NCBI RefSeq assembly: GCF_058153355.1
Contig: NZ_CM177019.1
Direction: 5' to 3' (one strand)
DNA length: 64,000 nt
The notes under the pieces: model-generated
What the model was told of the DNA's origin: nothing
The model's input: the letters and a program-made list of their open reading frames with translations, nothing else
Database searches by the model: none
In this document: positions 3,190 through 20,218 of the stretch, piece by piece
Layout of the letters: the number at the start of each line of letters is the position of its first letter
How positions within the stretch are numbered: the stretch's first letter is position 1
Translations under genes and position numbers: made by a program

Positions 3190-3945
3190 TTATGAAGCTG
3201 CTCCTCTATTAATACTCTTTATCTGATGAGCAATATTTTTATATGAACGATGATTAGCCGAGTTCATTACATCATGGATATAAGGAAAATGAGGTAAGGA
3301 TGAGATGAACCGCTCACCCGCAGTGAGATGGCAGATGTCATCTCTGCGCACAAAACTCTCTGTGGTTAACTTCACCTGGATGATGCTGGCTACTGGAATA
3401 ACCCTGATTATTTCGGCCTGACAGGCAACTAAATACCATTTTCCTTCCGTGTGAATAAGACGATAAGGTTCAAAGACCGCGTGAGAATCATTGCCAGTCA
3501 GCAAATGAATACAGTTTTGTTGACAGATCGCCTGTATCAGCCGCTGAAAACATTCTGATGATACAACCGAGTCAGAATGCGATGAAGACCAGATAAGGCA
3601 GGGAGAATACGACGTTTCACCCGTGAGGTAATGCATCAACCTGCGATCAGGTGACGGAAATAATTGAGAGATTCCGGTGTTACGCATAAACGCCAGAACA
3701 TCTAATGAACTGTCTGTAAAGCGTTTCCCGTCAAGTCGCCAGCGCCCATTCTCACTAACGATATTAAGGTGGAGTAATCGCTGGTGGAAATCTCGCTGTA
3801 GCGTTCGTTCAGATACTCCAAACTCTTCTGCCAGGTTTTTTAGGTCAAGAGACTCTCCTGACAGTAACCGGCTAATAATCTGTGTCAGCCTGATGGCAAA
3901 CCGGTCATAACGAGTCGATGTAGTGTTCATCAGAAAAACGTCCAT
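3190..3945 (-). CDS. WYL-domain transcriptional regulator (YfjR/BrxR-like); start codon uncertain (ORF extends to 4068)
   Basis: motif EPYRLIHTEGKWYLVACQ (WYL signature) plus N-terminal HTH-like region LKNLAEEFGVSERTLQRD. Confidence 0.55.
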   Translation of the reverse strand: MDVFLMNTTSTRYDRFAIRLTQIISRLLSGESLDLKNLAEEFGVSERTLQRDFHQRLLHLNIVSENGRWRLDGKRFTDSSLDVLAFMRNTGISQLFPSPDRRLMHYLTGETSYSPCLIWSSSHSDSVVSSECFQRLIQAICQQNCIHLLTGNDSHAVFEPYRLIHTEGKWYLVACQAEIIRVIPVASIIQVKLTTESFVRRDDICHLTAGERFISSLPHFPYIHDVMNSANHRSYKNIAHQIKSINRGAAS

Positions 3946-4166
3946 GGATAACTTACTGTTTTTAATGATGTTATTATGAATCATGAGCACGACAGGATAT
4001 GTCGTAGTAACGGGAGGAATAGAGAAAAAACGTCCAGACAAATAACTAAGTAATATCCTGATTAACAATAACTATTTTTTCCAGAGACAGAACTGAAGCA
4101 GGTCGCGACATATCCTGTCGCTGAAACTCATAATTTTCAGGTGGCTTAACTCAGTGGGTAGATGTA

Positions 4167-5051
4167 TTAGAAAAACCAGTGCCATATTGCGGTAGCTGCA
4201 TTCTCCAGCCCTTCTCTGAGCACTCCCAACCCGTTGCGTATCATGTTGGGGAGAGGTATGGCCTCCAGAATCCTGCTCAATAATTCTCCCAACAAATCCG
4301 CGAAATCCTTTCGGGCCTTCGTCTCCGATTCTTTGGTGCGATGTTCTTTCCTGATCTGGCGAAAGACGCCACTGGTAGCCTCTGGTGGCAGGGCAAAAAT
4401 CATTGTTTCAACTATACGAGACATGTTGTAACCGGTTTTTGCTGAAACAGCATGCACCGGGTAAGGGGTAAAGAACTGGCGGGAAACGGCAGCACTTCTC
4501 GCTGTGAGCGTCATGAGTTGCTTCACTGAAGGAGATCCTTTTTCACGATCCCATTCCAGTGATGGCTCGGCTTTGTCAGCCTGGTTGATAACAAAAACAA
4601 TGCTGTCTGTCGATACGCCACAATCCAGTAGAAAACGGTGGAATTCTTCGTCTGTGGTACAGGCGCGGTCATCGGCTTTCATCACCCAGAGAATGAGATC
4701 CAGCTTCGGTAACTGTTCCTGATACATCTGGCGATATATCTCATCATGCTTCAGCGATTCACCTGCGCCCGGCAGATCGATCAGCGTCAGGCTGCGTCCT
4801 CCAGCGTTCAGGGTAAAATGCAAAGGTTTACGTGTGCAGCCTTCTGCATGGCTGACTGGGCTGAGAGGATGTTCAAAAAGAGCATTGCAAAGCGAGGATT
4901 TTCCGGCACCTGTTTTGCCCATGATGCCAATCACGGGTTCGTAATGAATACTCTGGCGTATATGCTCCAGAACCAAATCGGAGATATGTTCAGGAAGAAT
5001 GGATAAAGGTTGCTTCAGGACATTAATGCCCCGTTCAAAGGAATCAGACAT
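4167..5051 (-). CDS. YfjP/YkfA-family GTPase (P-loop GTP-binding protein)
   Basis: G1 motif GKTGAGKSS, DLPG (G3-like) and NQADK (G4 NKxD-like); GGAGG RBS upstream of the ATG at 5051; ORF extends to 5105. Confidence 0.6.
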   Translation of the reverse strand: MSDSFERGINVLKQPLSILPEHISDLVLEHIRQSIHYEPVIGIMGKTGAGKSSLCNALFEHPLSPVSHAEGCTRKPLHFTLNAGGRSLTLIDLPGAGESLKHDEIYRQMYQEQLPKLDLILWVMKADDRACTTDEEFHRFLLDCGVSTDSIVFVINQADKAEPSLEWDREKGSPSVKQLMTLTARSAAVSRQFFTPYPVHAVSAKTGYNMSRIVETMIFALPPEATSGVFRQIRKEHRTKESETKARKDFADLLGELLSRILEAIPLPNMIRNGLGVLREGLENAATAIWHWFF

Positions 5052-5215
5052 GTAGCCTCCGGAATGAAAAAATTCGATACAGCAACTTCGCTGCAATGTA
5101 TTCATTGCGGTAATACAGGTCTGTTTTTTTTTGCATTCGAATTACGGGGAGGAATGTGGTTTTGTGGAGCAAACCGGGGGCATTGCCCCGGTTCACTGAT
5201 ATGGTGAAATGATAT

Positions 5216-5455
5216 CTAACGTCGCATTACCCATTCATTCAGTTCTGACTCCAGCCAGCCAACGGATTGCCTTCCCAAGCGTTTTTGTTTTGGAAATGTT
5301 CCATCGTAGCGTGGCGATTTTGGATTAAGCCAGTCGTATATGGTTGAGCGTGAAATTCCCATTTTTTTCATTACATCTTTTAGCCTCAAGATCCTCGGTG
5401 AATCAGGAATATTTGCGTAACTGGATGTATGTAAGGAGGGAGGGTTCTGTAACAT
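5216..5455 (-). CDS. alpA: AlpA-family phage regulatory protein (HTH)
   Basis: 79-aa ORF; ISRSTIYDWLNPKSPRYDGTFPK matches the AlpA signature of P4/CP4-57-type elements. Confidence 0.65.
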   Translation of the reverse strand: MLQNPPSLHTSSYANIPDSPRILRLKDVMKKMGISRSTIYDWLNPKSPRYDGTFPKQKRLGRQSVGWLESELNEWVMRR

Positions 5456-5568: not shown

Positions 5569-6450
5569 ATGAAGGATGTGGGTGCGAATTTTTTTGATGA
5601 TTTCTATCTGCAAGTTTGTACCGCTTGTGAGGACAAACTTCTTGAGCTGGAATGGAAACTTGAAGTCGAAAAAAAGGAGAGCAACCAAGATGTTCTGCGC
5701 ACTTACAGGCAAAGAGCCTATGATAAAATTGAAGAATTTAAAATTATTGAGTATTCAAAAATACAATGTCAATATTTTGTAGATATGACTAATAGCGACA
5801 ATATACGCTACTCACAAGAGTTTATAAATGTTGATGGAATAATGGTTGAGAAACCTTTTATTTATAAGGAAACATATGCAGAATATCGGATTGAAATTCG
5901 AGGAAAAATGGACGGGTATAAACTGACAGGATTAGCAAGACTATATGATGCACATTATGAATATATATATCTATCTATGGCTTTAGAAGATTTTTACTGG
6001 GCGCAGTTCCAATATTCATTGGGCAATAAAAAAGAAAGTTGTAAGTTTCTTCTTGATGCTTATTCTTATATGAATGTCTGTATTTCGCGAGATGATAACC
6101 GAGACTCACCGAGTTTTCATCGATTAAGAAGTGGTTTTGATAAAGTATGCAGAAGAGCGCGCTCAAGCGCTGGAGGGAAAAATAAACTTGCAGAACTTGA
6201 ATATATTAAAGATACAGTTGTTATCTTACTTGAAGATATTCCTTCACATAGCGACTGGAAAAATAAACGTCAACTTCTTGAATATTTAATGCCCTATATT
6301 TGTAATAATGATAAAAAGGTCAATCCAGATAAATGGATAAATGATACAGGCGATAGAGAGGAAACTATCCGCCGCAGACTTAATAAATGGTTTACAGGTG
6401 ATCTAAAAGTAGAGATTGATAAAGTCCTAAAGAACAATACTAACAATTAA
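5569..6450 (+). CDS. hypothetical protein, AT-rich orphan
   Basis: 293-aa ORF, strongly AT-rich codon usage, transcribed divergently from alpA; no recognisable motif. Confidence 0.5.
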   Translation: MKDVGANFFDDFYLQVCTACEDKLLELEWKLEVEKKESNQDVLRTYRQRAYDKIEEFKIIEYSKIQCQYFVDMTNSDNIRYSQEFINVDGIMVEKPFIYKETYAEYRIEIRGKMDGYKLTGLARLYDAHYEYIYLSMALEDFYWAQFQYSLGNKKESCKFLLDAYSYMNVCISRDDNRDSPSFHRLRSGFDKVCRRARSSAGGKNKLAELEYIKDTVVILLEDIPSHSDWKNKRQLLEYLMPYICNNDKKVNPDKWINDTGDREETIRRRLNKWFTGDLKVEIDKVLKNNTNN

Positions 6451-6681
6451 TATTATTATGGTTTTGATATTTTTATGTCTATCAGGAGGGCTACTATACG
6501 ATCAGTCTTGATGGGTTTGAAATTACATCGCTATGAAAATACCCCACATAAATCTATTGGAAAACCAATCATTGTTAATATGACTATTGTTATGATGACT
6601 GTTGTAATTGTGTCTACACGAGAAATTGAATGAAATTTATAGGTTTGAAGTAGCCTTAGTGGTAGTCGAAAATAATTATGT

Positions 6682-6713
6682 AAATGGGCCTGCATTTTGC
6701 AAGAAGGCCCATT
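6682..6713. terminator. hairpin between convergent genes (aaatgggcc ... ggcccattt)
   Basis: 9-bp inverted repeat read directly. Confidence 0.3.
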
Positions 6714-6717
6714 TACG

Positions 6718-7047
6718 TCAGGGGTAAATTATATATCCCATAATCGCACAGATTAACCGGTAATCACTCACGTAGAAGATTTCCGGATTCTCAGTGCTTT
6801 GTTCACCGATAAAGAAGACTTGAGCTCTCTCTTTAGCTTTTTTATTTACTGCTTCTTTTGCTTCTTCCTGCACAGTTTCAAGCTCATTCAAAAGCATAGT
6901 CTTTTTGGCTTTTGACCAGTCTCCCCACTCAATGTGTAGTTTATAGCTACGCGAGGGCTTAAACTTACCAGATTCGTCTTTTGCCCATTCTCCCGAGAGC
7001 GGAATGACAATTCGGTTTTCGTCTTGCTCAAATTTCTGCCATAACAA
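6718..7047 (-). CDS. hypothetical protein (109 aa)
   Basis: ORF co-directional with and downstream of the STAND gene; no motif recognised. Confidence 0.4.
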   Translation of the reverse strand: MLWQKFEQDENRIVIPLSGEWAKDESGKFKPSRSYKLHIEWGDWSKAKKTMLLNELETVQEEAKEAVNKKAKERAQVFFIGEQSTENPEIFYVSDYRLICAIMGYIIYP

Positions 7048-7094
7048 CTGCGAATAAAAAACTCGGCGCTCAGGGTAGGGTTGAACCGGGTCTT

Positions 7095-7628
7095 TTAGTT
7101 TTTTAACACGGTCATGTAAGTATCGGCATTAATACCTGGGATAATTAATGACATACCACGGTCATACGGGAAGCGAATAAATGCCCTACAAATCTGGCGA
7201 ATAGCATTAACCGGGCGGCGGGATTGCCGCGCTGGAGCATTTCCCTCGCTGGATGCCGATGTTGTAGAACGTATTGGATTGGGTTTGTTGTTGTTACCAG
7301 TAGTGTCAGGATCAACAACGGGTCGATTTTCAATCAGTTTTAATCCTGCAGGCATCAAACCTGGTGCGCTATCTAACATGCGGCGGACGCTTTTCTTCTG
7401 CCCCTGTTTAACCACTGTGCTTTCTGCATCAGCATCGCAATTAATGTGCTCTTTTCCAGGCATTTTATTAAACGAAGGTCTTTTCTTACTTCCTTTTTGC
7501 CAAGCAGAAGGATACATCTCAATCCCACATCCCCAGCATACGTAACTGTTCGTATCTACAACATCAAGTAACCAAAGATCTTCTGCCTCAATAATCTCAC
7601 TGGTATATTTATCACGTGCAGATTCCAT
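7095..7628 (-). CDS. hypothetical protein (177 aa) with a CxxC motif
   Basis: good RBS (aaaggagaaatc then ATG); starts 45 bp after the STAND gene stop; contains C-W-G-C. Confidence 0.5.
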   Translation of the reverse strand: MESARDKYTSEIIEAEDLWLLDVVDTNSYVCWGCGIEMYPSAWQKGSKKRPSFNKMPGKEHINCDADAESTVVKQGQKKSVRRMLDSAPGLMPAGLKLIENRPVVDPDTTGNNNKPNPIRSTTSASSEGNAPARQSRRPVNAIRQICRAFIRFPYDRGMSLIIPGINADTYMTVLKN

Positions 7629-7673: not shown

Positions 7674-10600
7674 TCATTCAAACCGTTGTTCCAATGCCTC
7701 ATCTTCCAATCGCTCGCGTTCTTTTTCCTTTTCAACCCAGTTAGTCAGTTTTTTATAAACAGCTCTAGCCGACTTAGAAATGTCTGCACGCTCGTGGGTG
7801 ACCAACCGGCCTATCGCTTCAACCCTGGGTTGCATCACGTTCGCACGACTACCGGACCATGATGAAGGTGCTACGTGTTCGGCAAAGATCTCAAGGACGG
7901 CTCGTGGCTCGGGTGAGGCTTCTAGAAATCTCAGAGCATCATCCTGCAAGCAAATAGGACTTTGCTCCCCGTCTTTTGACCATAGATTAATACCTGAAGC
8001 GACTGAAGCCCAAACCTGAGGGTCTTTAGTGGTCCCGCACCATTCAATCAAAATATCTACATCGATTTTCGCAATAGGAGACTGATGTGAATCATCATGA
8101 TTGATGAAATGCAGCCGCCTCTGTTGTTGATCCTCCGTACCATCAAAAATGCGACTGAGAAATTCTTTTGGCATCCATGCAGCGGTGATACCGATAGCGT
8201 CTTCGAAAGAAAAAATGTAGCCAAAATGCTCATCAACAACAGCAAAGATTGTATTCAGCCATTCTAGCTTTTCAGCCTCGTTGCCATCGAAGCGCAATGT
8301 GGCATCGATAACACGTTCCATTGCATAATCCAGATATCCGCCGAGATCGTTGTGATCTCTTTGGAACCTCTGGATTGCAGCGGATAGTCCAATTGTTCGT
8401 AGCGCAAGACCTAGTGTATCCGTAGCATCTCCTTTATCAGGTAGTTTCATACTCAATGCTTCCAATACTACTTCATCACCATTCGGTTTACTCAGCAGCC
8501 TTTGAGCAAGCTCGAGAACCCTGCTTTCTGGCAAATTAGAGAATTGCTCACCCCACAGAATTGCCCCATACATATGGGGCCGTATGTCAGAGTCATCCAG
8601 AAGCGACATGCAACGATCCAGATCGATTTCAGTAAACTCCTGCCAAGGATGTAGGTTGACTAATTCGAATCGAAGTTCGGAATGTTGTGCGCACTGATCG
8701 AGCAGTTCCTGCGCTAATGCTTTATCGATAGAATTCGTCTCTTCTATGAAACCTCGAATAACAGAAAAATCACTTTGAGATTTATGCTGTAGATTCATTT
8801 GAGTGATAAGTTTCTGCCAATAAACTCGTAGGTCAGGTGCTCCTTTAGCTAAGCCTTTACCGAATTCGACGCGATAGGGCATCCCATCTCGTAAGAATAA
8901 ATTAGGGCCTAACTCATCAAGTTCATGCGTGGATACTGCAAAGTCTTGCCCTAACTGGAACGCTTTTGCGTTAAGTATTTCCTTTATTTTTATGAATTTG
9001 TTAGGCCCCTCACGCTCAAAATCGGCATTCAGCGCCCAAAAATCACGCCCCTTACTGAGTACATAAGCCATAACTGCCGGAACCAAGTCATTAGGCTCCA
9101 ATTCTCGTTCCAATGTCACAAGTCCTTCCGGCAAAGGAGCTAAATCTTCGTTGTCATTTCTTTTGGTATGGGAAAAGTAAATTGTTGAGCGGACCGCTTT
9201 CCAGCCTTCACCCCAAGGACGATGGGCATGTAATTTGCGAGCCGCATCAATTAATTTTGACCTCATTCCTTCCTGACGCCAAATCCAGCGAAATTTATTA
9301 GCTAAGATCAGCCGAGCATCATCTTCAAGTTCGGGAACTCTTGAAGTTGCTAATCTCACCACAATGTCGATGAAGGTGATTAGCCACTCAACAAGCTCAT
9401 CGTAGCTGGGTCGAAATCCATAATCTCTTGGCCGAGCACCAAACTCATTAATCCCGAATCCTGTCCACGGTGGTCCGCCGAGAGCAGTTTCAAGCATTTC
9501 GAGCCCCAGCCTTCTACGTCCGGCCATACTTGAACCAATGCATTCATCCATGACCGCAACACGTTGTTCTAAAGAGGCATGGGTACCGGATAGATAAGGT
9601 TGGAAAAACCTCTTTATCTTATTTCGAGCCGAATCATAATTATTGCTCGCGCTTTCCTGATCTGCGATACGGATTAAGAGCTTAATGCATCGTTCAAAGT
9701 ATTTCGATTCATATGCAAGTAACTGCAACAATTTGATAATTGCTGTTCGTTGTGGGTTGTAGCGTGATTTAAAATGCTCAAAATTAGACGTAACAAGTGT
9801 TTCTTCAATCCGCTCAAGCAAAGCTCCCGGGGCGACTGGAGCGACATAATTCAGAATGCGTGTCGAAACATCATCTAGGTCTATTATTTTTCCAAGCAGC
9901 CCTTCGGGCTGTAACCAAGCTTCAACAATCTCTTTAGCCACAGCATGGCTGTGCAATAGTCCCAACCTGTGCGCGAACGACATCAATAATCGTTGTCGAT
10001 CCGGAGCTTCAAAGGTCGTCCTAAGTTGATCAATCGGAATACTATTAAGTGCAGATGCTGCCAACTTGTTAGCAATGGCATGGGGAAGGATGGCTCTCCA
10101 GTGGGATCTTTTCTGAACAACGTGACGTTCCATCAACTTCGTAACAGTTTTGAATAACTGGATTTTGGGATACCCAGAGAGCGCACCCAATATTTCCAGT
10201 TCATCGGTAGCTGCATCTGAACTAGATATTGAGAACGAATACACCAGTGACAATATTTCAGCTTGCTCCCGTAAATGGCCGTCGGGATGATTACGTTGTT
10301 CAAACAAGCGATTAAACAACTGCGCATCTGAAAGTAGGGCTAAACTCTCACCTTCCTCCACTCTTTCCGCTATAGCCAAAGCCACTCTTGCATTCCCATC
10401 TGCGAACTTTGCAATCCGACGGGCATTATTCTGACCAATAGAAGGGAAGCGACGGATAAGAAGTTGCTCTGCCACCTCTGGACCATCTGTCTCAATGTGG
10501 ATGACCTCAGTTGTCTGTGGTTTGTCATCCCTAATGTCGTACTCGATCGTGATGAGACTTACTTCTTTCCCTGCGGCTGATACTTTGCTGGCAAGCGAAG

Positions 10601-11525
10601 CATGGAGTTCTGATGGGCAATTATCAAGGATCATAATTGCTCGTCGGCCTTCAGCGAGCAGGTTATCAAGCATTGCTGTAGCCGACGGTACTGGCTCATA
10701 GCCAGTATCAACATAAATAGCTACTGTCCGGTCAAGCGCATCTGTTCCAACAGTATCATCAAAGAGCGCCTGAACGATTCGAGTCTTCCCAACACCAGAC
10801 AATCCTGTAATACGAACAGCCTTATTCGTCGAACGGATCAGTGCTCGCATTGGGTTAATTGCTTCATCAATTTTGAGTTTTTGCCCCTTTCCCGATGGTA
10901 AAGTAATGGTTACGCTTGGGGCTGAGATTAAAGTGTCTGTAACACCTTGTGGTGGATTGCTCCAGGCTCCGTAGGGTTGCCAACCGGAATACCCTTGCCC
11001 AAGCTTTGCTTTTACCCACAGCATGACTGATGGATGTTGGCGCAACCATTGGATGAGTTTGGAGCGGTCGTAGAAATCAAGATGAAGATAACTTTCGTTA
11101 GGATCATCTTTTACTGCATCTCTCATCGCTTTGAGACGATTCTTCTTTCCTGACGGCGAGCAATCATCACCCAGGCTGACAATGATGTAACTGCCTTGCT
11201 TTCTGGCTTGTTCAGAAATGATGGGAGAAAGTGCTTTTCCGGTGCCAATTTCCCTCTCGATTGCAGCCTTAGGCATCTTATGTTTCTTTGCCTGAAAGAC
11301 CGTATCAGGTCTTACAAGAAAGCCTGCTTTCAGTTGATCAACTGGAACCTGAACATGGATGTCAATTCCTCCGTCAGGGGCTGTAATTGAACCAGACCAA
11401 TTTACACATGCTGGGCTATGGCCGTGCATTGCCACTTCAGCTTCTGCTAGCCGAGCGATCAGCTCTTCCAACTGGATATCGGAGAGCCGAAGTAATTCGT
11501 CCTTTTCAATGTCAAAGATTGCCAC
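7674..11525 (-). CDS. Mrr-like (PD-(D/E)xK) nuclease / STAND P-loop NTPase / long helical C-terminal domain protein; Avs-like antiphage candidate
   Basis: 1283-aa ORF; N-terminal DGGID (residues 51-55) ... QAK (78-80) resembles the Mrr catalytic core; Walker A GLSGVGKT encoded at 10782..10805; Walker B-like AIMILDN; GNARVALAIA resembles the GxP motif of STAND NTPases. Confidence 0.7.
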   Translation of the reverse strand: MAIFDIEKDELLRLSDIQLEELIARLAEAEVAMHGHSPACVNWSGSITAPDGGIDIHVQVPVDQLKAGFLVRPDTVFQAKKHKMPKAAIEREIGTGKALSPIISEQARKQGSYIIVSLGDDCSPSGKKNRLKAMRDAVKDDPNESYLHLDFYDRSKLIQWLRQHPSVMLWVKAKLGQGYSGWQPYGAWSNPPQGVTDTLISAPSVTITLPSGKGQKLKIDEAINPMRALIRSTNKAVRITGLSGVGKTRIVQALFDDTVGTDALDRTVAIYVDTGYEPVPSATAMLDNLLAEGRRAIMILDNCPSELHASLASKVSAAGKEVSLITIEYDIRDDKPQTTEVIHIETDGPEVAEQLLIRRFPSIGQNNARRIAKFADGNARVALAIAERVEEGESLALLSDAQLFNRLFEQRNHPDGHLREQAEILSLVYSFSISSSDAATDELEILGALSGYPKIQLFKTVTKLMERHVVQKRSHWRAILPHAIANKLAASALNSIPIDQLRTTFEAPDRQRLLMSFAHRLGLLHSHAVAKEIVEAWLQPEGLLGKIIDLDDVSTRILNYVAPVAPGALLERIEETLVTSNFEHFKSRYNPQRTAIIKLLQLLAYESKYFERCIKLLIRIADQESASNNYDSARNKIKRFFQPYLSGTHASLEQRVAVMDECIGSSMAGRRRLGLEMLETALGGPPWTGFGINEFGARPRDYGFRPSYDELVEWLITFIDIVVRLATSRVPELEDDARLILANKFRWIWRQEGMRSKLIDAARKLHAHRPWGEGWKAVRSTIYFSHTKRNDNEDLAPLPEGLVTLERELEPNDLVPAVMAYVLSKGRDFWALNADFEREGPNKFIKIKEILNAKAFQLGQDFAVSTHELDELGPNLFLRDGMPYRVEFGKGLAKGAPDLRVYWQKLITQMNLQHKSQSDFSVIRGFIEETNSIDKALAQELLDQCAQHSELRFELVNLHPWQEFTEIDLDRCMSLLDDSDIRPHMYGAILWGEQFSNLPESRVLELAQRLLSKPNGDEVVLEALSMKLPDKGDATDTLGLALRTIGLSAAIQRFQRDHNDLGGYLDYAMERVIDATLRFDGNEAEKLEWLNTIFAVVDEHFGYIFSFEDAIGITAAWMPKEFLSRIFDGTEDQQQRRLHFINHDDSHQSPIAKIDVDILIEWCGTTKDPQVWASVASGINLWSKDGEQSPICLQDDALRFLEASPEPRAVLEIFAEHVAPSSWSGSRANVMQPRVEAIGRLVTHERADISKSARAVYKKLTNWVEKEKERERLEDEALEQRFE

Positions 11526-11972
11526 ATCCTAACCCTATTAAAGATACTGCGACTATATAAAAAGTTACCCTTATTCTAACCAATGACAGAAGGAATGTCC
11601 CTTAAACCGTTGCAATTAAAACCATTCTCATCAAGTAGTTAAGATTTTCTTACTCAGCACTATGATGTTGATCTTACCCACTTTGCGTCAAACTATTAGT
11701 ATGTATAAAGCACATTGCTGGCCTGATTAAGAAATGGATTGATATGTGAGTTAATGTCATTTATGAGCTTAAAGCTATTTTTAATCCCCTTTGCTTTACA
11801 ACTCTTTATATTATTTCATTCTTATTTACACCAATATTTATTGGTATGATGGTTTAATTTAATTCATTTTTGTTTTTTTGTTTGAAGCACATTGAAAGGA
11901 TATTATTATTTTCTCCTTCATGTTGAAAACAATTTAATTGGGCGGGTTTGGTTCGATATTATTAATATCTTT

Positions 11973-12000
11973 TTCAAAGAAATTATTTATATGGTATAAT
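11973..12000 (+). promoter_or_regulatory. putative sigma70 promoter with extended -10 (ttcaaa ... tggtataat)
   Basis: -35-like ttcaaa at 11973..11978, 16-bp spacer, TGnTATAAT at 11992..12000, within a long AT-rich tract upstream of the nuclease-helicase gene. Confidence 0.3.
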
Positions 12001-12032
12001 GCAATAAAATCGTATTGAGGTAAGAGGGTACT

Positions 12033-12227
12033 ATGAGTGGATCTTTTGATTTCTTAGCTGGTTCTTTGGCTCTTGAAAATAAACCTTTCCATATGCAGGT
12101 TGCAGAGCTAATAAAAAATAAGTTTCGTCATTGTGAGGGATATATTGGCTATAAGCTTGCAACTTTGGGACGGGCATCGGACTCCGATGTTCCAGATTTT
12201 ATCATTATACAAAAGAACATGGCATAA
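12033..12227 (+). pseudogene. 5' portion of nuclease-helicase gene (NERD/PD-(D/E)xK-like N-terminus), separated from the helicase frame by an apparent -1 frameshift
   Basis: 64-aa ORF with RBS gaggtaagaggg; ends ...SDVPDFIIIQKNMA; adding one A to the A4 run at 12211..12214 gives DFIIIQKEHGIILVDMVESK, continuous with the helicase ORF. Confidence 0.45.
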
Positions 12228-12238
12228 TTTTAGTTGAC

Positions 12239-14248
12239 ATGGTTGAAAGTAAGGTTTCTCGTGCGGATGAGGTGCAGGGGAATGAGGTTTGGTATTATGA
12301 GCATGGAGGTTCGAGTGTAGCAAGGAATTTTATTGTCGAGTTGTATGAGGAGGAGGTAAGAAGTAGATTAAAAAACGATGCAAATTTCTACAACAGAAGA
12401 AAAAAAACATGCACAGTTCCGATTACTAGCGCTGTTATTTTTTGTAAAAATAATAATAGTGAGATAGACAATTTCTATCAAGAGTATGCTGATTATGAAA
12501 GTTCAGCTATTGAATATGGCGAGATTGAGAATTGGTTAGATAGCGTTGAAGAAGGGTTCAATTGCGATTCTAAAGTTCTGGGGCGAATTTTTTCATTGTT
12601 AGAGGGGACGTTTATATATGAAAATAAAAAAATTCTCGATGAAGAACCACCCCTTAACACTGTGAATGATTATATCAAAAAATCTCTAAATATAACATTT
12701 AATCAAGATCACTCACAACGTATTGCTTCAATGCAACTAACCCCGGGCCCTCAGAGAATTCGTGGCTTGGCCGGAACAGGTAAGACGATAGTTCTTTCAT
12801 TAAAAGCTGCGATAACGCACAAAAAATTTCCAGATTATAAAATATTATATTTATTTAATACACAAAGCTTATATCAAAATGTGCAGAGTTCAATCGCCAG
12901 ATACTATACTTTAGAAGCCAAAAAAGCGCCAGATTTTGAATCGAATCTAAATGTCTTCCATGCGTGGGGTGGTAGGCAGAAACCGGGACTGTATTCATAT
13001 ATTTGCCAACAGTATGGATTAACTCCACTAACATTAGGAGATGTACGTGGAGCAAGTGATGCCTTAGCTGTCATATATGCAGAACTTCTCAAAAAAATCG
13101 GTGGTGATATAAAGCCTGAATATGATCTTATTTTAATAGATGAAGCCCAAGATTTTCCTAAAGAGTTGTTTGAAGTGGTCTTTAAACTAGCAAAGGGCAA
13201 ACCTCATGAGAAAAGGATCGTTTGGGCGTATGATGAATTCCAGTCATTGAAAGACACTCAAATTAAAGGTCCATCTGAGCTATTTGGTTTGGCCAAAGAT
13301 GGCACCCCAAATATGAGTGATGATGTTTTAGATGGATTCTATCCTGGTGACATAAAAAAAGATATTGTTTTATCCAATTGCTATAGGACTCCTCGTCCTG
13401 CTCTTATGACTGCTCACGGAGTAGCATTAGGACTTTATACTAATAAGCCGAATGAAATGTTTTATAACCATGATGAATGGAAAGCTATTGGCTATAAAGT
13501 TTTAAATCCTCAGACAAAAATCATTGCAAAAGGCAATGATGTGCAAATAGAGAGACCTAATGAAAATAGTCTAAATCTGTTGGAAGGAATTATGACAGAG
13601 CAGGGTAAGAGGGCCCTTAACCTTATCCAGACTAAGGTGGAAAATGATCGGGAAAGTCAATATGAATATATTGCAAGTAACATCAAACGTTTAATTGATG
13701 AGGAAAATGTCTCGCCTGAAGAAATAGTCATAATTAATTTGAAGTCCTCTAGTAACAAAGATGAGATGCTACGCATTCAATTCATCTTAAATAATTACGG
13801 TATTCACTCTGTAATTCCCGGTTACGTTGAAAGCTCAGATGTCTTTAAACCCAAGGGGTTCGTTACAATCACAACCCCTTTCAGGGCTAAAGGGAATGAA
13901 GCTAATATTGTATTTATTTTAAATAGCCAGTTAGTTGTTAATGATTTTTCATTAAGGATGCGTAATGCATTTTTTGTAGCAGTAACTCGAACAAGAGGAT
14001 GGTGTTATATTGTTGGTTATGGAGAAAAAATGCAAATGCTTGTGGACGAAATTTCAGGAATCAAAAGAGATTTCCCTATATTTAATTTCATTTGTCCTGA
14101 CCCTGATGATGTCAAAGCACGAAAAAGTTATCTCCACAAATCAGACTCTGAGATCAATGAGATGCAAAGAGTACTGGATTTAGTTAATAATAACGAAGAG
14201 TTAAGACGACTGCTACAGGAGCAGCTCATTGATAAGAAAGGAGATTAA
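12239..14248 (+). CDS. SF1 helicase (UvrD/RecD-like), probable C-terminal body of a nuclease-helicase fusion
   Basis: 669-aa ORF; Walker A GLAGTGKT at 12764..12787; Walker B LILIDEAQDF; FVAVTRTRGW motif VI-like. Confidence 0.7.
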   Translation: MVESKVSRADEVQGNEVWYYEHGGSSVARNFIVELYEEEVRSRLKNDANFYNRRKKTCTVPITSAVIFCKNNNSEIDNFYQEYADYESSAIEYGEIENWLDSVEEGFNCDSKVLGRIFSLLEGTFIYENKKILDEEPPLNTVNDYIKKSLNITFNQDHSQRIASMQLTPGPQRIRGLAGTGKTIVLSLKAAITHKKFPDYKILYLFNTQSLYQNVQSSIARYYTLEAKKAPDFESNLNVFHAWGGRQKPGLYSYICQQYGLTPLTLGDVRGASDALAVIYAELLKKIGGDIKPEYDLILIDEAQDFPKELFEVVFKLAKGKPHEKRIVWAYDEFQSLKDTQIKGPSELFGLAKDGTPNMSDDVLDGFYPGDIKKDIVLSNCYRTPRPALMTAHGVALGLYTNKPNEMFYNHDEWKAIGYKVLNPQTKIIAKGNDVQIERPNENSLNLLEGIMTEQGKRALNLIQTKVENDRESQYEYIASNIKRLIDEENVSPEEIVIINLKSSSNKDEMLRIQFILNNYGIHSVIPGYVESSDVFKPKGFVTITTPFRAKGNEANIVFILNSQLVVNDFSLRMRNAFFVAVTRTRGWCYIVGYGEKMQMLVDEISGIKRDFPIFNFICPDPDDVKARKSYLHKSDSEINEMQRVLDLVNNNEELRRLLQEQLIDKKGD

Positions 14249-14250
14249 AA

Positions 14251-14922
14251 TTGAATTTCTCATTAGTGCAGCAAAGCTTAAACCATGTCGAAGCACTTTT
14301 AAAACCTGTAACTCAACAAAAATTAATAGAGTTTAAAGAAAGAGAGAAGGTCATAAGTTGGACAAATAGGAAGCCAGGAATTTACAATGAAGTCTACTAT
14401 CCTATTGAATATCAATGTGTAATTGATGCAAGGCAGTACTCATTATTGCTTCGAGATGGCGATTTTTTTCAATTTTTTTATGAGTTTGATGCGAAAACTG
14501 GCAATCTGAAGAAAGCTAAGTTGGCTTTCTATCCCTCACCAATTGATTGTAGAAATTCGTTGGATGATCTCAATGAAGCAGCTGAATTTGCTTTTGATCA
14601 TAATGAAGAACTCTATAATCATCTTGATAATTGGATTTCGCTATTGGAAATAAAAAACTATTTTCCAGCAAATACATCTCAAGTTAGATTTGATTATGAT
14701 AGTACGGTTACTACACATGAGAAAGCACATCTGCAGTTTAGTAGTGTAAATAAACTTAGACTTCCGGCTGACTTTTTTCCTTTGCCATATGCATTTGTAT
14801 TAATGGTTTCTGATCTTATTAATGGATGCTCAAAGGTAGATGCTAGACATATAAGCTTTACTAAGAGAAACAGCCTAAGATCAAATGTTTCTAATAGAAT
14901 CATAACCTTGAAATCACAGTGA
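14251..14922 (+). CDS. hypothetical protein, helicase-coupled partner (223 aa)
   Basis: TTG start 3 bp after the helicase stop, AGGAG RBS 7 nt upstream; AT-rich; no motif recognised. Confidence 0.5.
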   Translation: MNFSLVQQSLNHVEALLKPVTQQKLIEFKEREKVISWTNRKPGIYNEVYYPIEYQCVIDARQYSLLLRDGDFFQFFYEFDAKTGNLKKAKLAFYPSPIDCRNSLDDLNEAAEFAFDHNEELYNHLDNWISLLEIKNYFPANTSQVRFDYDSTVTTHEKAHLQFSSVNKLRLPADFFPLPYAFVLMVSDLINGCSKVDARHISFTKRNSLRSNVSNRIITLKSQ

Positions 14923-15372: not shown

Positions 15373-16614
15373 TCACCCAACTAGCTTCATTCCTTTTATC
15401 CCACCTTCAATCATGCTTCCACGATCCGCTGCCATCACAAAATTTGCCCACCATTGCATCATCGGGCGACGCTGTTCCAGGTAATCGCTGCGGTTATAAG
15501 CACGACGAACCTCATTCTTATCCACATGGGCCAATGCTGCCTCAATGACATCAGGCGGAAAGCCTTGTTCATTAAGAGCCGTACTGGCAATTGATCTCAG
15601 ACCATGCGAAACAAGCACACCACCAAAACCTGCGCGTTTTAGTGAGGCGTTAACAGTCTGACTGTTCATTGGCTGGTTGGGCTTGATACGGCTGGGAAAG
15701 ATAAATTCTCGGTTGCCGCTTAGCGGTTTCATCATCTCCAGCACAGCTATTGCTTCATCTGACAATGGAACAGTATGATCGCGGTTCATTTTCATGCGTG
15801 CTGCAGGAATCTTCCACTCTCGCGCTTCTATGTCTACCTCTTCCCAGCGAGCTTCAGCCGCTTCGGCAGGGCGGGTAATAGTAAGAAGTTGCCACATGAA
15901 CAGGCAGCGTGTGGAAAGGCTAATGCTGGCTGTTCGCATTGTCTGCATCAATTGAGGTAGCTGATCCGGTCGAATGCTGGGCATGTTCTTTTTCTGAGGC
16001 TTCTCGAAGGCTTTACCGATATTAACGCTGGGAACAGCATCAATCAGCCCTGTGTTTTGGGCATAGATCATGACCTCATTAATGCGCTGACACAGGCGAC
16101 GAACGGTTTCCAGTGCTCCTCTGGCCTGAACTGGTTGGACGGCCTGAACCAGTGTGTGTGCTTTAATATCTGTAACGCTAATGTCGCCAATTGCAGGAAA
16201 GACATCTCTCTCAAGAGAGCGCCAGATATCCTCTGCGTAGTCTTCGGTCACACTGGCTTTCTTCACATTCCACCAACGTTCAGCCACGAGCTGGAAAGTA
16301 TTGGTTTTAGCTTCCAGCGAACTGCGAAGTTGTTCTTGTTGATGTTCCTGGGGATCAATTTGTTTCGCCAGAAGAGAGCGGGACTCTGCCCGATAGTTTC
16401 GGGCATCGGCAAGGGTAACTGACGGGTAGGGGCCTATGCTCTTCTTCGCACGTTTCTTAGTGACAGGGCGAATGTAGCGAAACTGCCAGATTTTACTTCC
16501 GCTGGATTTGATGAGTAGCTCAAGGCCATCACCATCATAGAGAACGTAGTCCGCTTCTTTGGGTTTGGCGGATTCGATTTCTTTAACGGATAGAGGTTTG
16601 GTTTGTCTTGCCAT
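15373..16614 (-). CDS. intA: P4-type tyrosine integrase (IntA-like) next to ssrA
   Basis: 413-aa ORF; C-terminal catalytic region with HGLRS ... EAALAH ... RAY pattern; position immediately 5' of the tmRNA 3' end. Confidence 0.85.
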   Translation of the reverse strand: MARQTKPLSVKEIESAKPKEADYVLYDGDGLELLIKSSGSKIWQFRYIRPVTKKRAKKSIGPYPSVTLADARNYRAESRSLLAKQIDPQEHQQEQLRSSLEAKTNTFQLVAERWWNVKKASVTEDYAEDIWRSLERDVFPAIGDISVTDIKAHTLVQAVQPVQARGALETVRRLCQRINEVMIYAQNTGLIDAVPSVNIGKAFEKPQKKNMPSIRPDQLPQLMQTMRTASISLSTRCLFMWQLLTITRPAEAAEARWEEVDIEAREWKIPAARMKMNRDHTVPLSDEAIAVLEMMKPLSGNREFIFPSRIKPNQPMNSQTVNASLKRAGFGGVLVSHGLRSIASTALNEQGFPPDVIEAALAHVDKNEVRRAYNRSDYLEQRRPMMQWWANFVMAADRGSMIEGGIKGMKLVG

Positions 16615-16818: not shown

Positions 16819-17181
16819 TGGTGGAGCTGGCGGGAGTTGAACCCGCGTCCGAAATTCCTACATCCTCGGTACTACATGCTTAGTCAGTCTTTACATTCGC
16901 TTGCCAGCTGCGGACGGACACGCCACTAACAAACTAGCCTGATTAAGTTTTAACGCTTCAACCCCAGGCAGGGCTTCCACGCGATCTCTTTTGGGTTTGA
17001 CCTCTCTTGATCCCCGTCCTAAGAGCGGAGGCTAGGGAGAGAGGGCTCTAAGCAGGTTATTAAGCTGCTAAAGCGTAGTTTTCGTCGTTTGCGACTATTT
17101 TTTGCGGCTTTTTACGAGGCCAACCGCCCCTCGGCATGCACCTTGGGTTTCGCAAATCCCGTCGAATCCAGAATCAGCCCC
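16819..17181 (-). ncRNA. ssrA: tmRNA (SsrA)
   Basis: reverse complement begins GGGGCTGATTCTGGATTCGACGGG and ends ...GTTCAACTCCCGCCAGCTCCACCA; tag-encoding region present. Confidence 0.92.
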
Positions 17182-18792: not shown

Positions 18793-20218
18793 TAATGCCG
18801 ATCAGTTAAGGATCAGTTGACCGATCCAGTGGCTGTGTAAGAATCCGGAAACGCTCACTTGTTTCCGGATTTTTTTATGCACATTGGACAGGCTCTTGAT
18901 CTGGTATCCCGTTACGATTCTCTGCGTAACCCACTGACTTCTCTGGGGGATTACCTCGACCCCGAACTCATCTCTCGTTGCCTTGCCGAATCAGGTACTG
19001 TAACGCTACGCAAGCGCCGTCTTCCCCTCGAAATGATGGTCTGGTGTATTGTTGGCATGGCGCTTGAGCGTAAAGAACCTCTTCACCAGATTGTGAATCG
19101 CCTGGACATCATGCTGCCGGGCAATCGCCCCTTCGTTGCCCCCAGTGCCGTTATTCAGGCCCGCCAGCGCCTGGGAAGTGAGGCTGTCCGCCGCGTGTTC
19201 ACGAAAACAGCGCAGCTCTGGCATAACGCCACGCCGCATCCGCACTGGTGCGGCCTGACCCTGCTGGCCATCGATGGTGTGTTCTGGCGCACACCGGATA
19301 CACCAGAGAACGATGCAGCCTTCCCCCGCCAGACACATGCCGGGAACCCGGCGCTCTACCCGCAGGTCAAAATGGTCTGCCAGATGGAACTGACCAGCCA
19401 TCTGCTGACGGCTGCAGCCTTCGGCACGATGAAGAACAGCGAAAATGAGCTTGCTGAGCAACTTATAGAACAAACCGGCGATAACACTCTGACGTTAATG
19501 GATAAAGGTTATTACTCACTGGGACTGTTAAATGCCTGGAGCCTGGCGGGAGAACACCGCCACTGGATGATACCTCTCAGAAAGGGAGCGCAATATGAAG
19601 AGATCAGAAAACTGGGTAAAGGCGATCATCTGGTGAAGCTGAAAACCAGCCCGCAGGCACGAAAAAAGTGGCCGGGACTGGGAAATGAAGTGACAGCCCG
19701 CCTGCTGACCGTGACGCGCAAAGGAAAAGTCTGCCATCTGCTGACGTCGATGACGGACGCCATGCGCTTCCCCGGAGGAGAAATGGCGGATCTGTACAGT
19801 CATCGCTGGGAAATCGAACTGGGATACAGGGAGATAAAACAGACGATGCAACTGAGCAGGCTGACGCTGAGAAGTAAAAAGCCGGAGCTTGTGGAGCAAG
19901 AGCTGTGGGGTGTCTTACTGGCTTATAATCTGGTGAGATATCAGATGATTAAAATGGCGGAACATCTGAAAGGTTACTGGCCGAATCAACTGAGTTTCTC
20001 AGAATCATGCGGAATGGTGATGAGAATGCTGATGACATTGCAGGGCGCTTCACCGGGACGTATACCGGAGCTGATGCGCGATCTTGCAAGTATGGGACAA
20101 CTTGTGAAATTACCGACAGGAAGGGAAAGGGCCTTCCCGAGAGTGGTAAAGGAGAGGCCCTGGAAATACCCCACAGCCCCGAAAAAGAGCCAGTCAGTTG
20201 CTTAACTGACTGGCATTA
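18793..20218 (+). mobile_element. insertion sequence IS4, complete (1426 bp)
   Basis: terminal inverted repeats taatgccgatcagttaag (left) and cttaactgactggcatta (right); encodes full-length transposase. Confidence 0.88.
18877..20205 (+). CDS. insG: IS4 transposase InsG
   Basis: 442-aa product from ATG at 18877 ([14 protein letters not shown]...). Confidence 0.88.

What the first reader, a model, noticed from the sequence alone, without database searches (positions are those of the whole stretch)
7674..11525. Single-gene STAND NTPase with an Mrr-like nuclease head: Avs-like antiphage candidate
Seen: a 1283-aa ORF in the AT-rich ssrA island. Its N-terminus carries DGGID (residues 51-55) and QAK (78-80), spaced like the Mrr PD-(D/E)xK core. 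A P-loop GLSGVGKT is encoded at 10782..10805, followed by a Walker B-like AIMILDN and a GNARVALAIA segment resembling the STAND GxP motif, then ~850 aa of predicted helical repeats. Established: antiviral STAND (Avs/AVAST) proteins combine an N-terminal effector, a STAND ATPase and a C-terminal sensor that recognises phage terminase or portal. Inference: this is a nuclease-effector STAND defence protein; at 1283 aa it is shorter than the Avs1-4 examples I recall, so it may be a distinct clade.
Basis: partly seen in the sequence, partly recalled or inferred. Interest (0 to 1): 0.85.

Follow-up and report, generated by a model that had tools for sequence, protein, structure and literature searches.

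The report
Known Avs8 (PD-λ-4) phage-defence gene

Summary
PADLOC matches it end to end to PD-Lambda-4_A (2499.9 bits). It is 94% identical, without gaps, to ECOR07 Avs8A (WP_000963924.1). Two preprints show that protein binds HK97-fold major capsid protein and then degrades dsDNA in an ATP- and Mg2+-dependent way.

Tests run here support the three-part architecture:
- The N-terminal domain has a PD-(D/E)xK nuclease fold, and D51, D55, Q78 and K80 are invariant.
- The centre is a STAND NTPase; Foldseek returns a STAND-TPR protein, NOD2, Avs4 and Apaf-1.
- The C-terminus is a 760-aa all-helical solenoid.
- Pfam and NCBIfam detect none of these domains.

Modest local findings:
- The partner gene avs8B is frameshifted here and is disrupted by different events in three other lineages. 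This fits its reported dispensability.
- Sensor residues 707-935 are a second allele type. They are 84% identical in nucleotides to all complete E. coli genomes but 98-99% identical to Intestinirhabdus and Superficieibacter, while the flanks stay 96-98.5% identical.
- The adjacent Helicase+DUF2290 system is also frameshifted.

The parts
7674..11525 (-). avs8A (PD-λ-4 gene A), intact 1283-codon CDS with a GTG start
   Evidence: The ORF is listed and translated. PADLOC PD-Lambda-4_A matches residues 1-1283 of 1283 at 2499.9 bits. It is 94% identical, with no gaps, to ECOR07 Avs8A WP_000963924.1. The exact protein is in NCBI as EGO8354573.1 and HFG3511295.1.
11001..11525 (-). N-terminal PD-(D/E)xK (Mrr-like) nuclease effector domain, residues 1 to about 175
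11361..11375 (-). DGGID motif (residues 51-55); D51 and D55 are invariant
   Evidence: Translation; invariance.
11286..11294 (-). QAK motif (residues 78-80), the QxK variant of (D/E)xK, at the end of a β-strand
   Evidence: Translation. Q78 and K80 are invariant. The model places a strand at about residues 74-80.
9966..10883 (-). STAND NTPase module (NBD, helical and winged-helix parts), residues about 215-520
10782..10805 (-). Walker A / P-loop GLSGVGKT (residues 241-248)
   Evidence: Translation. G241, G244, G246 and K247 are invariant. Weak AAA_16 P-loop hit at E 0.012.
10620..10640 (-). Walker B region AIMILDN (residues 296-302)
   Evidence: D301 and N302 are invariant. The model has a β-strand at 295-300.
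10386..10400 (-). DGNAR motif (residues 376-380), positionally equivalent to the STAND GxP / GLPL motif but without proline
   Evidence: G377 and N378 are invariant and R380 is nearly invariant. The equivalence to GxP is an inference from position only.
7677..9965 (-). C-terminal α-solenoid sensor (residues 521-1283), about 39 helices
   Evidence: The AF2 model has pLDDT 90.3 and is almost all helix. Foldseek returns only HEAT/ARM-type solenoids at TM 0.2-0.33. This is the most variable part of the protein across the family.
8721..9407 (-). Divergent allelic block inside the sensor (residues 707-935)
   Evidence: Nucleotide identity to ECOR07/55989 is 84.3% inside the block and 98.1% outside (log-likelihood gain 93). 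dS is about 0.38 against 0.03-0.09 elsewhere, with dN/dS about 0.22 throughout. The surrounding segment (residues 661-960) is only 85-87.5% identical in all 136 complete E. coli genomes that hold it. The block is 99.1% identical to I. alba and 98.0% to S. electus.
6718..7628 (-). avs8B (PD-λ-4 gene B), a pseudogene here, split into ORFs 7095..7628 (177 aa) and 6718..7047 (109 aa)
   Evidence: The two ORFs match PADLOC PD-Lambda-4_B profile positions 1-176 and 195-303. Alignment to the intact 303-aa gene of FEX669 shows one missing T. The same split is present in an independent Logan assembly of SRR31441161.
7105..7106 (-). Site of the 1-nt deletion (TTT to TT) that frameshifts avs8B; the premature stop is at 7095-7097
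6681..6715 (-). Terminator-like hairpin just after the avs8B stop (10-bp stem TAAATGGGCC/GGCCCATTTA, 15-nt loop)
   Evidence: Read directly from the sequence. The consensus scan did not call it because the loop exceeds 8 nt. Function is inferred only.
11526..12032 (-). AT-rich intergenic region upstream of avs8A, presumed to hold its promoter
   Evidence: Promoter-like matches lie at 11601..11573 and 11691..11662, but the count of such matches in the region is not above chance (14 found against 12.1 expected). The published constructs used the native promoter.

Best explanation
The gene is an orthologue and allelic variant of Avs8A (PD-λ-4A), a single-polypeptide bacterial pattern-recognition receptor.

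Proposed mechanism:
1. The C-terminal α-solenoid binds monomeric HK97-fold major capsid protein made during phage infection.
2. Binding, together with ATP at the central STAND NTPase, drives oligomerisation. A tetramer is predicted.
3. Oligomerisation activates the N-terminal Mrr-like PD-(D/E)xK nuclease.
4. The nuclease degrades double-stranded DNA of phage and host, which aborts the infection.

What was shown here: the identity with Avs8A, the three-domain architecture, conservation of the catalytic and nucleotide-binding residues, and purifying selection on the gene.

What comes from the literature on a 94%-identical protein: capsid binding, ATP- and Mg2+-dependent DNase activity, phage λ and BASEL-phage protection, and dispensability of gene B.

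What is inferred: that this particular allele is active and has the same trigger.

The downstream partner avs8B is a pseudogene here, so the locus functions as a one-gene system. It sits in a mobile, ssrA-integrated defence island.
For: Identity with Avs8A:
- PADLOC PD-Lambda-4_A matches the full length at 2499.9 bits.
- The protein is 1207/1283 identical, with no gaps, to WP_000963924.1, which is the ECOR07 Avs8A accession given in the preprint.

Experimental basis for the mechanism:
- Avs8A binds λ gpE with KD 127 nM and the Bas21 major capsid protein with KD 14 nM.
- Capsid protein plus ATP plus Mg2+ triggers dsDNA degradation.
- Nuclease active-site mutants lose defence.
- Avs8A alone gives full λ protection.
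- An independent screen from a second laboratory lists Avs8 (PD-λ-4) as a capsid-protein sensor.

Architecture tested here:
- STAND fold.
- PD-(D/E)xK fold for residues 1 to about 175.
- All-helical solenoid sensor.
- Invariant D51, D55, Q78, K80, K247 and D301.

Selection: the ORF is intact at 1283 codons in five lineages, with dN/dS about 0.2-0.26.

Family size: 792 clusters at 50% identity score E<=1e-30, and most are about 1270 aa long.
Against: - No experiment exists for this allele.
- It differs from the tested protein at 76 residues. More than half of them (49) lie in sensor residues 701-1000, so trigger range could differ.
- Two neighbouring defence genes in the same island, avs8B and the helicase, carry frameshifts, so the island shows some decay.
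- Pfam, NCBIfam and PDB sequence searches give no significant nuclease or STAND hit. The domain calls therefore rest on predicted structure and on the authors' annotation.
- The sensor model matches only generic solenoids; no solved Avs sensor is among the 50 listed matches.
- The mechanism papers are preprints.
Confidence: 0.88

Rival explanations
1. It has the same Avs8 architecture and mechanism, but the exchanged sensor block (residues 707-935) gives this allele a different recognition range. It might sense other capsid proteins, or fail to recognise λ gpE.
For: The block is a distinct allele type. It is 84% identical in nucleotides to every complete E. coli genome but 98-99% identical to I. 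alba and S. electus, while the flanks stay 96-98.5% identical. It carries 47 of the 76 amino-acid differences from the tested protein, counted from the alignment. It lies in the central part of the solenoid that the literature says wraps the capsid protein.
Against: dN/dS inside the block is about 0.22, the same as elsewhere, so there is no sign of positive selection. Avs8A is reported to tolerate capsid proteins that share under 15% identity, which suggests recognition is robust to modest changes. The contact residues are not known from anything I could test.
Confidence: 0.25
2. The gene is an inactive remnant in a decaying island. The ORF is intact, but the gene is not expressed or the protein no longer functions.
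For: Both flanking defence genes carry 1-nt deletions. These are reproduced in an independent assembly. No promoter signal above chance lies upstream.
Against: A 3852-nt frame is uninterrupted. All family-invariant catalytic and nucleotide-binding residues are retained. dN/dS is about 0.2. The allele is 98.7% identical to an intact copy in another genus. The upstream region is conserved with loci whose native promoter drives defence.
Confidence: 0.07
3. It is a generic AAA+/restriction-type enzyme unrelated to STAND immunity, for example an ATP-dependent restriction endonuclease that recognises DNA rather than a phage protein.
Against: Foldseek ranks STAND proteins first, with probability 1.00. 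The nuclease, NBD, helical/winged-helix and long-solenoid arrangement is the Avs layout. Direct biochemical evidence shows capsid-protein activation in a 94%-identical protein.
Confidence: 0.03

Closest known systems
Avs8 / PD-λ-4 (ECOR07 Avs8A, WP_000963924.1; Vassallo et al. 2022, PMC9519451; bioRxiv 10.1101/2025.07.02.662641; bioRxiv 10.64898/2026.01.04.697583)
   Same: Same length (1283 aa), 94% identity with no gaps, same GTG start and the same ssrA-island position next to the same integrase type. The PADLOC model matches the full length.
   Different: There are 76 substitutions, concentrated in sensor residues 707-935, which form a second allele type. Gene B is frameshifted at codon 176 here. 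In ECOR07/55989 it is frameshifted at about codon 241, giving a 248-aa product.
Avs4 (Mrr-like nuclease-STAND-TPR; PDB 8dgf, portal sensor) and Avs3
   Same: Same effector-STAND-helical sensor layout. The N-terminal PD-(D/E)xK nuclease is activated by binding of a phage structural protein. The active form is a tetramer, predicted for Avs8A. Avs4 is the third Foldseek hit, E 1.3e-6.
   Different: About 10% sequence identity. Avs8A is shorter (1283 aa against 1534 aa for the 8dgf chain). The trigger is major capsid protein rather than portal or terminase. ATP hydrolysis may be required for Avs8A, which has not been reported for Avs4. The sensor model does not retrieve Avs sensors.
Avs7 and Avs10 (the other capsid-sensing STAND families)
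   Same: [quoted passage not shown]
   Different: They are described as having different sensor architectures and as distinct families. I did not compare them here.
Eukaryotic and archaeal STAND/NLR proteins (NOD2, Apaf-1, CED-4, plant NRC; archaeal STAND-TPR 6mfv)
   Same: Shared NBD-helical-winged-helix core by fold. The P-loop region aligns weakly to the plant NLR Roq1 (E 0.23).
   Different: No significant sequence similarity. The effector and sensor domains differ. The GxP/GLPL position is G-G-N-A-R.

Membership tests
PD-λ-4 / Avs8, gene A | Full-length match to the family model (PADLOC PD-Lambda-4_A) | tested here: met
   PDLC03991 matches residues 1-1283 of 1283 at 2499.9 bits, E = 0.
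PD-λ-4 / Avs8, gene A | Close identity to the experimentally characterised protein (ECOR07 Avs8A, WP_000963924.1) | tested here: met
   1207/1283 identical with no gaps.
PD-λ-4 / Avs8, two-gene operon | Intact gene B downstream of gene A | tested here: not met
   Gene B is present but frameshifted (177 + 109 aa). The literature shows gene B is dispensable, so this does not remove the locus from the family.
PD-λ-4 / Avs8 | Activation by HK97-fold major capsid protein, and phage protection | not testable with these tools
   Shown only for the ECOR07 allele and in the Avs8 screen.
Avs / AVAST (antiviral STAND) | STAND NTPase core with Walker A and Walker B | tested here: met
Avs / AVAST (antiviral STAND) | N-terminal effector domain | tested here: met
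Avs / AVAST (antiviral STAND) | C-terminal TPR-like helical-repeat sensor | tested here: met
   The 763-aa model (pLDDT 90.3) has about 39 helices. The nearest folds are HEAT/ARM solenoids. It is solenoid-like rather than canonical TPR.
Mrr_cat (Pfam PF04471) restriction-endonuclease family | Significant match to the Pfam Mrr_cat profile | tested here: not met
   No hit even at E<=10 for the query or for any of 37 homologues scanned individually. A PDB sequence-profile search also found no nuclease.
PD-(D/E)xK nuclease superfamily | Restriction-endonuclease-like fold with conserved acidic residues and a lysine on the core strands | tested here: met

The most novel reading that the evidence does not exclude
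Avs8A may exist as at least two sensor-cassette alleles. The central solenoid block (residues 707-935) is about 15% divergent in nucleotides and is exchanged by recombination within an otherwise 96-98.5% identical gene that moves between Enterobacteriaceae genera. The swap would retune which capsid proteins are recognised. In parallel, avs8B is being lost repeatedly and independently, which would mean the 'two-gene' PD-λ-4 definition describes a decaying accessory gene rather than a system component.
Probability: 0.25. Interest if true: 0.4.

Novelty: already known. Interest (0 to 1): 0.15.

Why it matters
It was discovered experimentally in 2022 as PD-λ-4 and characterised mechanistically in 2025-26 as Avs8, so this locus adds another allele rather than a new system.

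Three local observations have some practical value:
- Standard annotation profiles (Pfam, NCBIfam) still detect nothing in this protein. Only defence-specific models or structure prediction identify it.
- Comparative data back the experimental finding that avs8B is dispensable, because it has been broken by four independent events.
- A discrete, recombining sensor block offers natural chimaeras for mapping how Avs8 recognises capsid proteins.

Tried and rejected
- Pfam on residues 84-1283 and 1-520 found only sub-threshold P-loop matches.
- NCBIfam found nothing.
- phmmer and profile searches against PDB sequences gave nothing significant. The best was the Roq1 P-loop at E 0.23, plus a spurious Vsr C-terminal match at E 1.5.
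- A Pfam scan of 37 N-terminal homologues, one by one, found no nuclease family.
- The word-indexed homologue search with the sensor segment returned only fragments and missed the known full-length E. coli proteins, so it could not be used to trace the block.
- The promoter and terminator consensus scan gave no signal above shuffled controls.
- Intact Avs8B has no Pfam, PHROG or NCBIfam match, so its function remains unknown.
- I considered positive selection on the sensor block and rejected it, because dS rises together with dN and dN/dS is unchanged. Recombination explains the pattern better.
- I considered assembly error for the two frameshifts and rejected it, because an independent Logan assembly of SRR31441161 carries both. 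It may, however, derive from the same strain.
- I tested whether the block is hypervariable across the family. It is not more variable than the rest of the sensor.
- The preprint text does not name the residues mutated in the nuclease active site.
Full report
**Observation.** The window has a 1283-codon ORF at 7674..11525 on the minus strand with a GTG start. It translates without internal stops.
- DGGID at residues 51-55 and QAK at 78-80.
- GLSGVGKT at residues 241-248, which is nt 10782..10805.
- AIMILDN at residues 296-302.
- GNARVALAIA from residue 377.

The gene lies in a low-GC stretch. GC is 0.33-0.48 over the first 15 kb and about 0.5 elsewhere. The stretch is bounded by a P4-type integrase at 15373..16614 (NF007246, 934.6 bits) and by the tmRNA gene at 16819..17181. 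The flanking core genes (smpB, ratA, bamE, recN) are about 99% identical to E. coli.

**Identification.** A scan against PADLOC-DB matches the whole protein, residues 1-1283 of a 1283-position model, to PD-Lambda-4_A at 2499.9 bits. The two small ORFs immediately downstream, 7095..7628 and 6718..7047, match PD-Lambda-4_B profile positions 1-176 and 195-303.

PD-λ-4 came out of the functional selection of Vassallo et al. 2022 (PMC9519451). It was renamed Avs8 in bioRxiv 10.1101/2025.07.02.662641. That preprint gives ECOR07 Avs8A as WP_000963924.1. The same accession annotates the homologous gene of E. coli 55989. The window protein is 1207/1283 (94%) identical to it with no gaps. The exact window protein is already in NCBI as EGO8354573.1 and HFG3511295.1 from E. 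coli.

**Published mechanism (for the 94%-identical protein).**
- Avs8A alone gives full λ protection, and Avs8B is dispensable.
- Recombinant Avs8A binds λ gpE (KD 127 nM) and the Bas21 major capsid protein (KD 14 nM).
- Capsid protein together with ATP and Mg2+ switches on degradation of linear dsDNA. AMP-PNP does not substitute for ATP.
- Assembled virions do not activate the protein.
- Nuclease active-site mutants lose defence.
- A tetramer is predicted.

An independent screen lists Avs8 (PD-λ-4) as one of three STAND families that wrap the HK97-fold capsid protein.

**Independent tests of the architecture.** Sequence-profile libraries do not recognise the protein:
- Pfam gives only sub-threshold P-loop matches.
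- NCBIfam gives nothing.
- phmmer and profile searches against PDB sequences give nothing significant. The best is the P-loop of the plant NLR Roq1 at E 0.23.

An exhaustive search of 1.84 billion representatives shows a large family. There are 2247 hits at E<=0.001 and 792 at E<=1e-30, and most are about 1270 aa long.

In an alignment of 61 homologues at 38-70% identity to the query, the invariant residues include D51, D55, Q78, K80, G241, G244, G246, K247, D301, N302, G377 and N378 (numbering shifted by one; for the N-terminal domain alone).

An AlphaFold2 model of residues 2-520 is confident (pLDDT 88.7, pTM 0.83).
- Foldseek against the PDB ranks STAND proteins first: the archaeal STAND-TPR protein 6mfv (E 1.4e-8), NOD2, Avs4 8dgf_B, Apaf-1, NRC resistosomes and CED-4.

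A model of residues 521-1283 is also confident (pLDDT 90.3) and almost entirely helical, with about 39 helices. Its nearest solved folds are HEAT/ARM solenoids such as SF3B1, transportin, CAND1 and PP2A-A, at low TM-scores of 0.2-0.33.

- Membership of the Pfam Mrr_cat family was tested and not met, either for the query or for any of 37 homologues. 'Mrr-like' rests on fold, on the D...D...QxK pattern and on the authors' annotation.
- The 'GxP' resemblance is positional only. The conserved motif is G-G-N-A-R.

**The partner gene.** Alignment with the intact 303-aa gene of E. coli FEX669 shows a single missing T in a TTT run in the window, at 7105-7106. This gives a premature stop at 7095-7097. 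E. coli 55989 and ECOR07 carry a different lesion, an extra A in an A run near codon 241. It yields the 248-aa protein WP_000443183.1, which the preprint calls Avs8B.

In a spread sample of 60 of the 147 complete E. coli genomes with the gene, 53 have the 893-bp allele annotated as two proteins. Only a few carry a single CDS. In Intestinirhabdus alba and Superficieibacter electus, homology to avs8B stops after about codon 140 and about codon 250 respectively, and unrelated sequence follows. That makes four independent disruptions, while avs8A stays at exactly 1283 codons in all five lineages. This agrees with the experimental dispensability of Avs8B.

The window's frameshift is also present in a Logan assembly of run SRR31441161, so it is unlikely to be an assembly artefact. 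Intact Avs8B has no Pfam, PHROG or NCBIfam match.

**A mosaic sensor.** Differences from ECOR07 Avs8A are not evenly spread. Per 100 residues the counts are 2, 2, 2, 2, 4, 1, 6, 15, 23, 11, 2, 2, 4. In residues 661-960, dS is about 0.38 against 0.03-0.09 elsewhere, while dN/dS is about 0.22 throughout. That is the signature of recombination with a divergent allele rather than of local positive selection.

A two-rate likelihood scan places the block at residues 707-935 (window 8721..9407). Nucleotide identity is 84.3% inside and 98.1% outside, with a log-likelihood gain of 93. All 136 complete E. coli genomes that hold this segment are only 85-87.5% identical to the window there.

A degenerate-pattern scan of species-representative genomes found the window-specific peptide in I. 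alba and S. electus. Their avs8A genes are 98.7% and 97.0% identical to the window's overall. Within the block they are 99.1% and 98.0% identical, while all pairwise flank comparisons are 96-98.5%.

Only the avs8 module is shared with those genera, and the flanking genes differ. Across the wider family the sensor as a whole is more variable than the nuclease and NTPase modules (entropy 2.5-3.2 bits against 1.8-1.9). The block is not exceptional within the sensor. I could not test whether the block contacts the capsid protein.

**Verdict.** However, the system is already known by name, with genetics, biochemistry and trigger identified. The mechanism given for this locus is shown for a 94%-identical protein and inferred for this allele.

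The residual novelty is small: a second sensor-block allele type shared across genera, repeated loss of avs8B, and a frameshifted Helicase+DUF2290 neighbour. I rate interest at 0.15 and novelty as already known.

Noticed in passing
window 12033-14922 (+): A second defence system lies next door: Helicase+DUF2290, the Rousset et al. 2022 type (PADLOC Helicase 1.8e-108, DUF2290 2.5e-13). Its helicase gene has a 1-nt deletion (AA to A, at about 12209) relative to E. coli FEX669. This splits it into 64-aa and 669-aa ORFs. The same split is present in the Logan SRR31441161 assembly.
   Followed up: partly
window 6718-7628 (-); L001 6069-6980; L002 6069-6981; L004 and L005: avs8B is broken by four different events in four lineages. 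The 248-aa 'Avs8B' used in the published experiments is itself a frameshift-truncated form of a 303-aa protein, which also occurs in Enterobacter. The intact protein has no detectable family. It carries a CxxC...HxxC motif near its N-terminus (YVCWGCG...KEHINC).
   Followed up: partly
window 8721-9407 (-); L005 and L004: The central sensor block of avs8A is a distinct allele type shared with Intestinirhabdus alba and Superficieibacter electus (98-99% identical) but absent from all 5,426 complete E. coli genomes searched. Only the avs8 module, not its flanks, is shared between these genera.
   Followed up: yes
window 3190-5455 (-) and 5569-6450 (+): The remaining island cargo comprises a WYL-domain regulator (3190-4068), a small-GTPase family protein with weak LeoA/LeoBC similarity (4167-5105), an AlpA-like HTH gene (5216-5455) and an unassigned 293-aa ORF (5569-6450). 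The layout resembles a CP4-57-type ssrA island. In E. coli 55989 the equivalent region is interrupted by an IS3 element, and a different 1248-aa gene sits between avs8A and the integrase.
   Followed up: no
window about 18859-20205 (+): A 448-aa ORF lies in the core region between the smpB/ratA/bamE cluster and recN. It corresponds to an IS4 family transposase insertion that only 2 of 5,426 complete E. coli genomes share at this site.
   Followed up: no
window 7674-7820 (-), residues 1235-1283: The extreme C-terminus gives weak, non-significant matches to the C-terminal helix of Vsr endonuclease (PADLOC E 0.0048; PDB 1vsr/1odg E 1.5). I treated these as chance similarity of a charged helix.
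   Followed up: no
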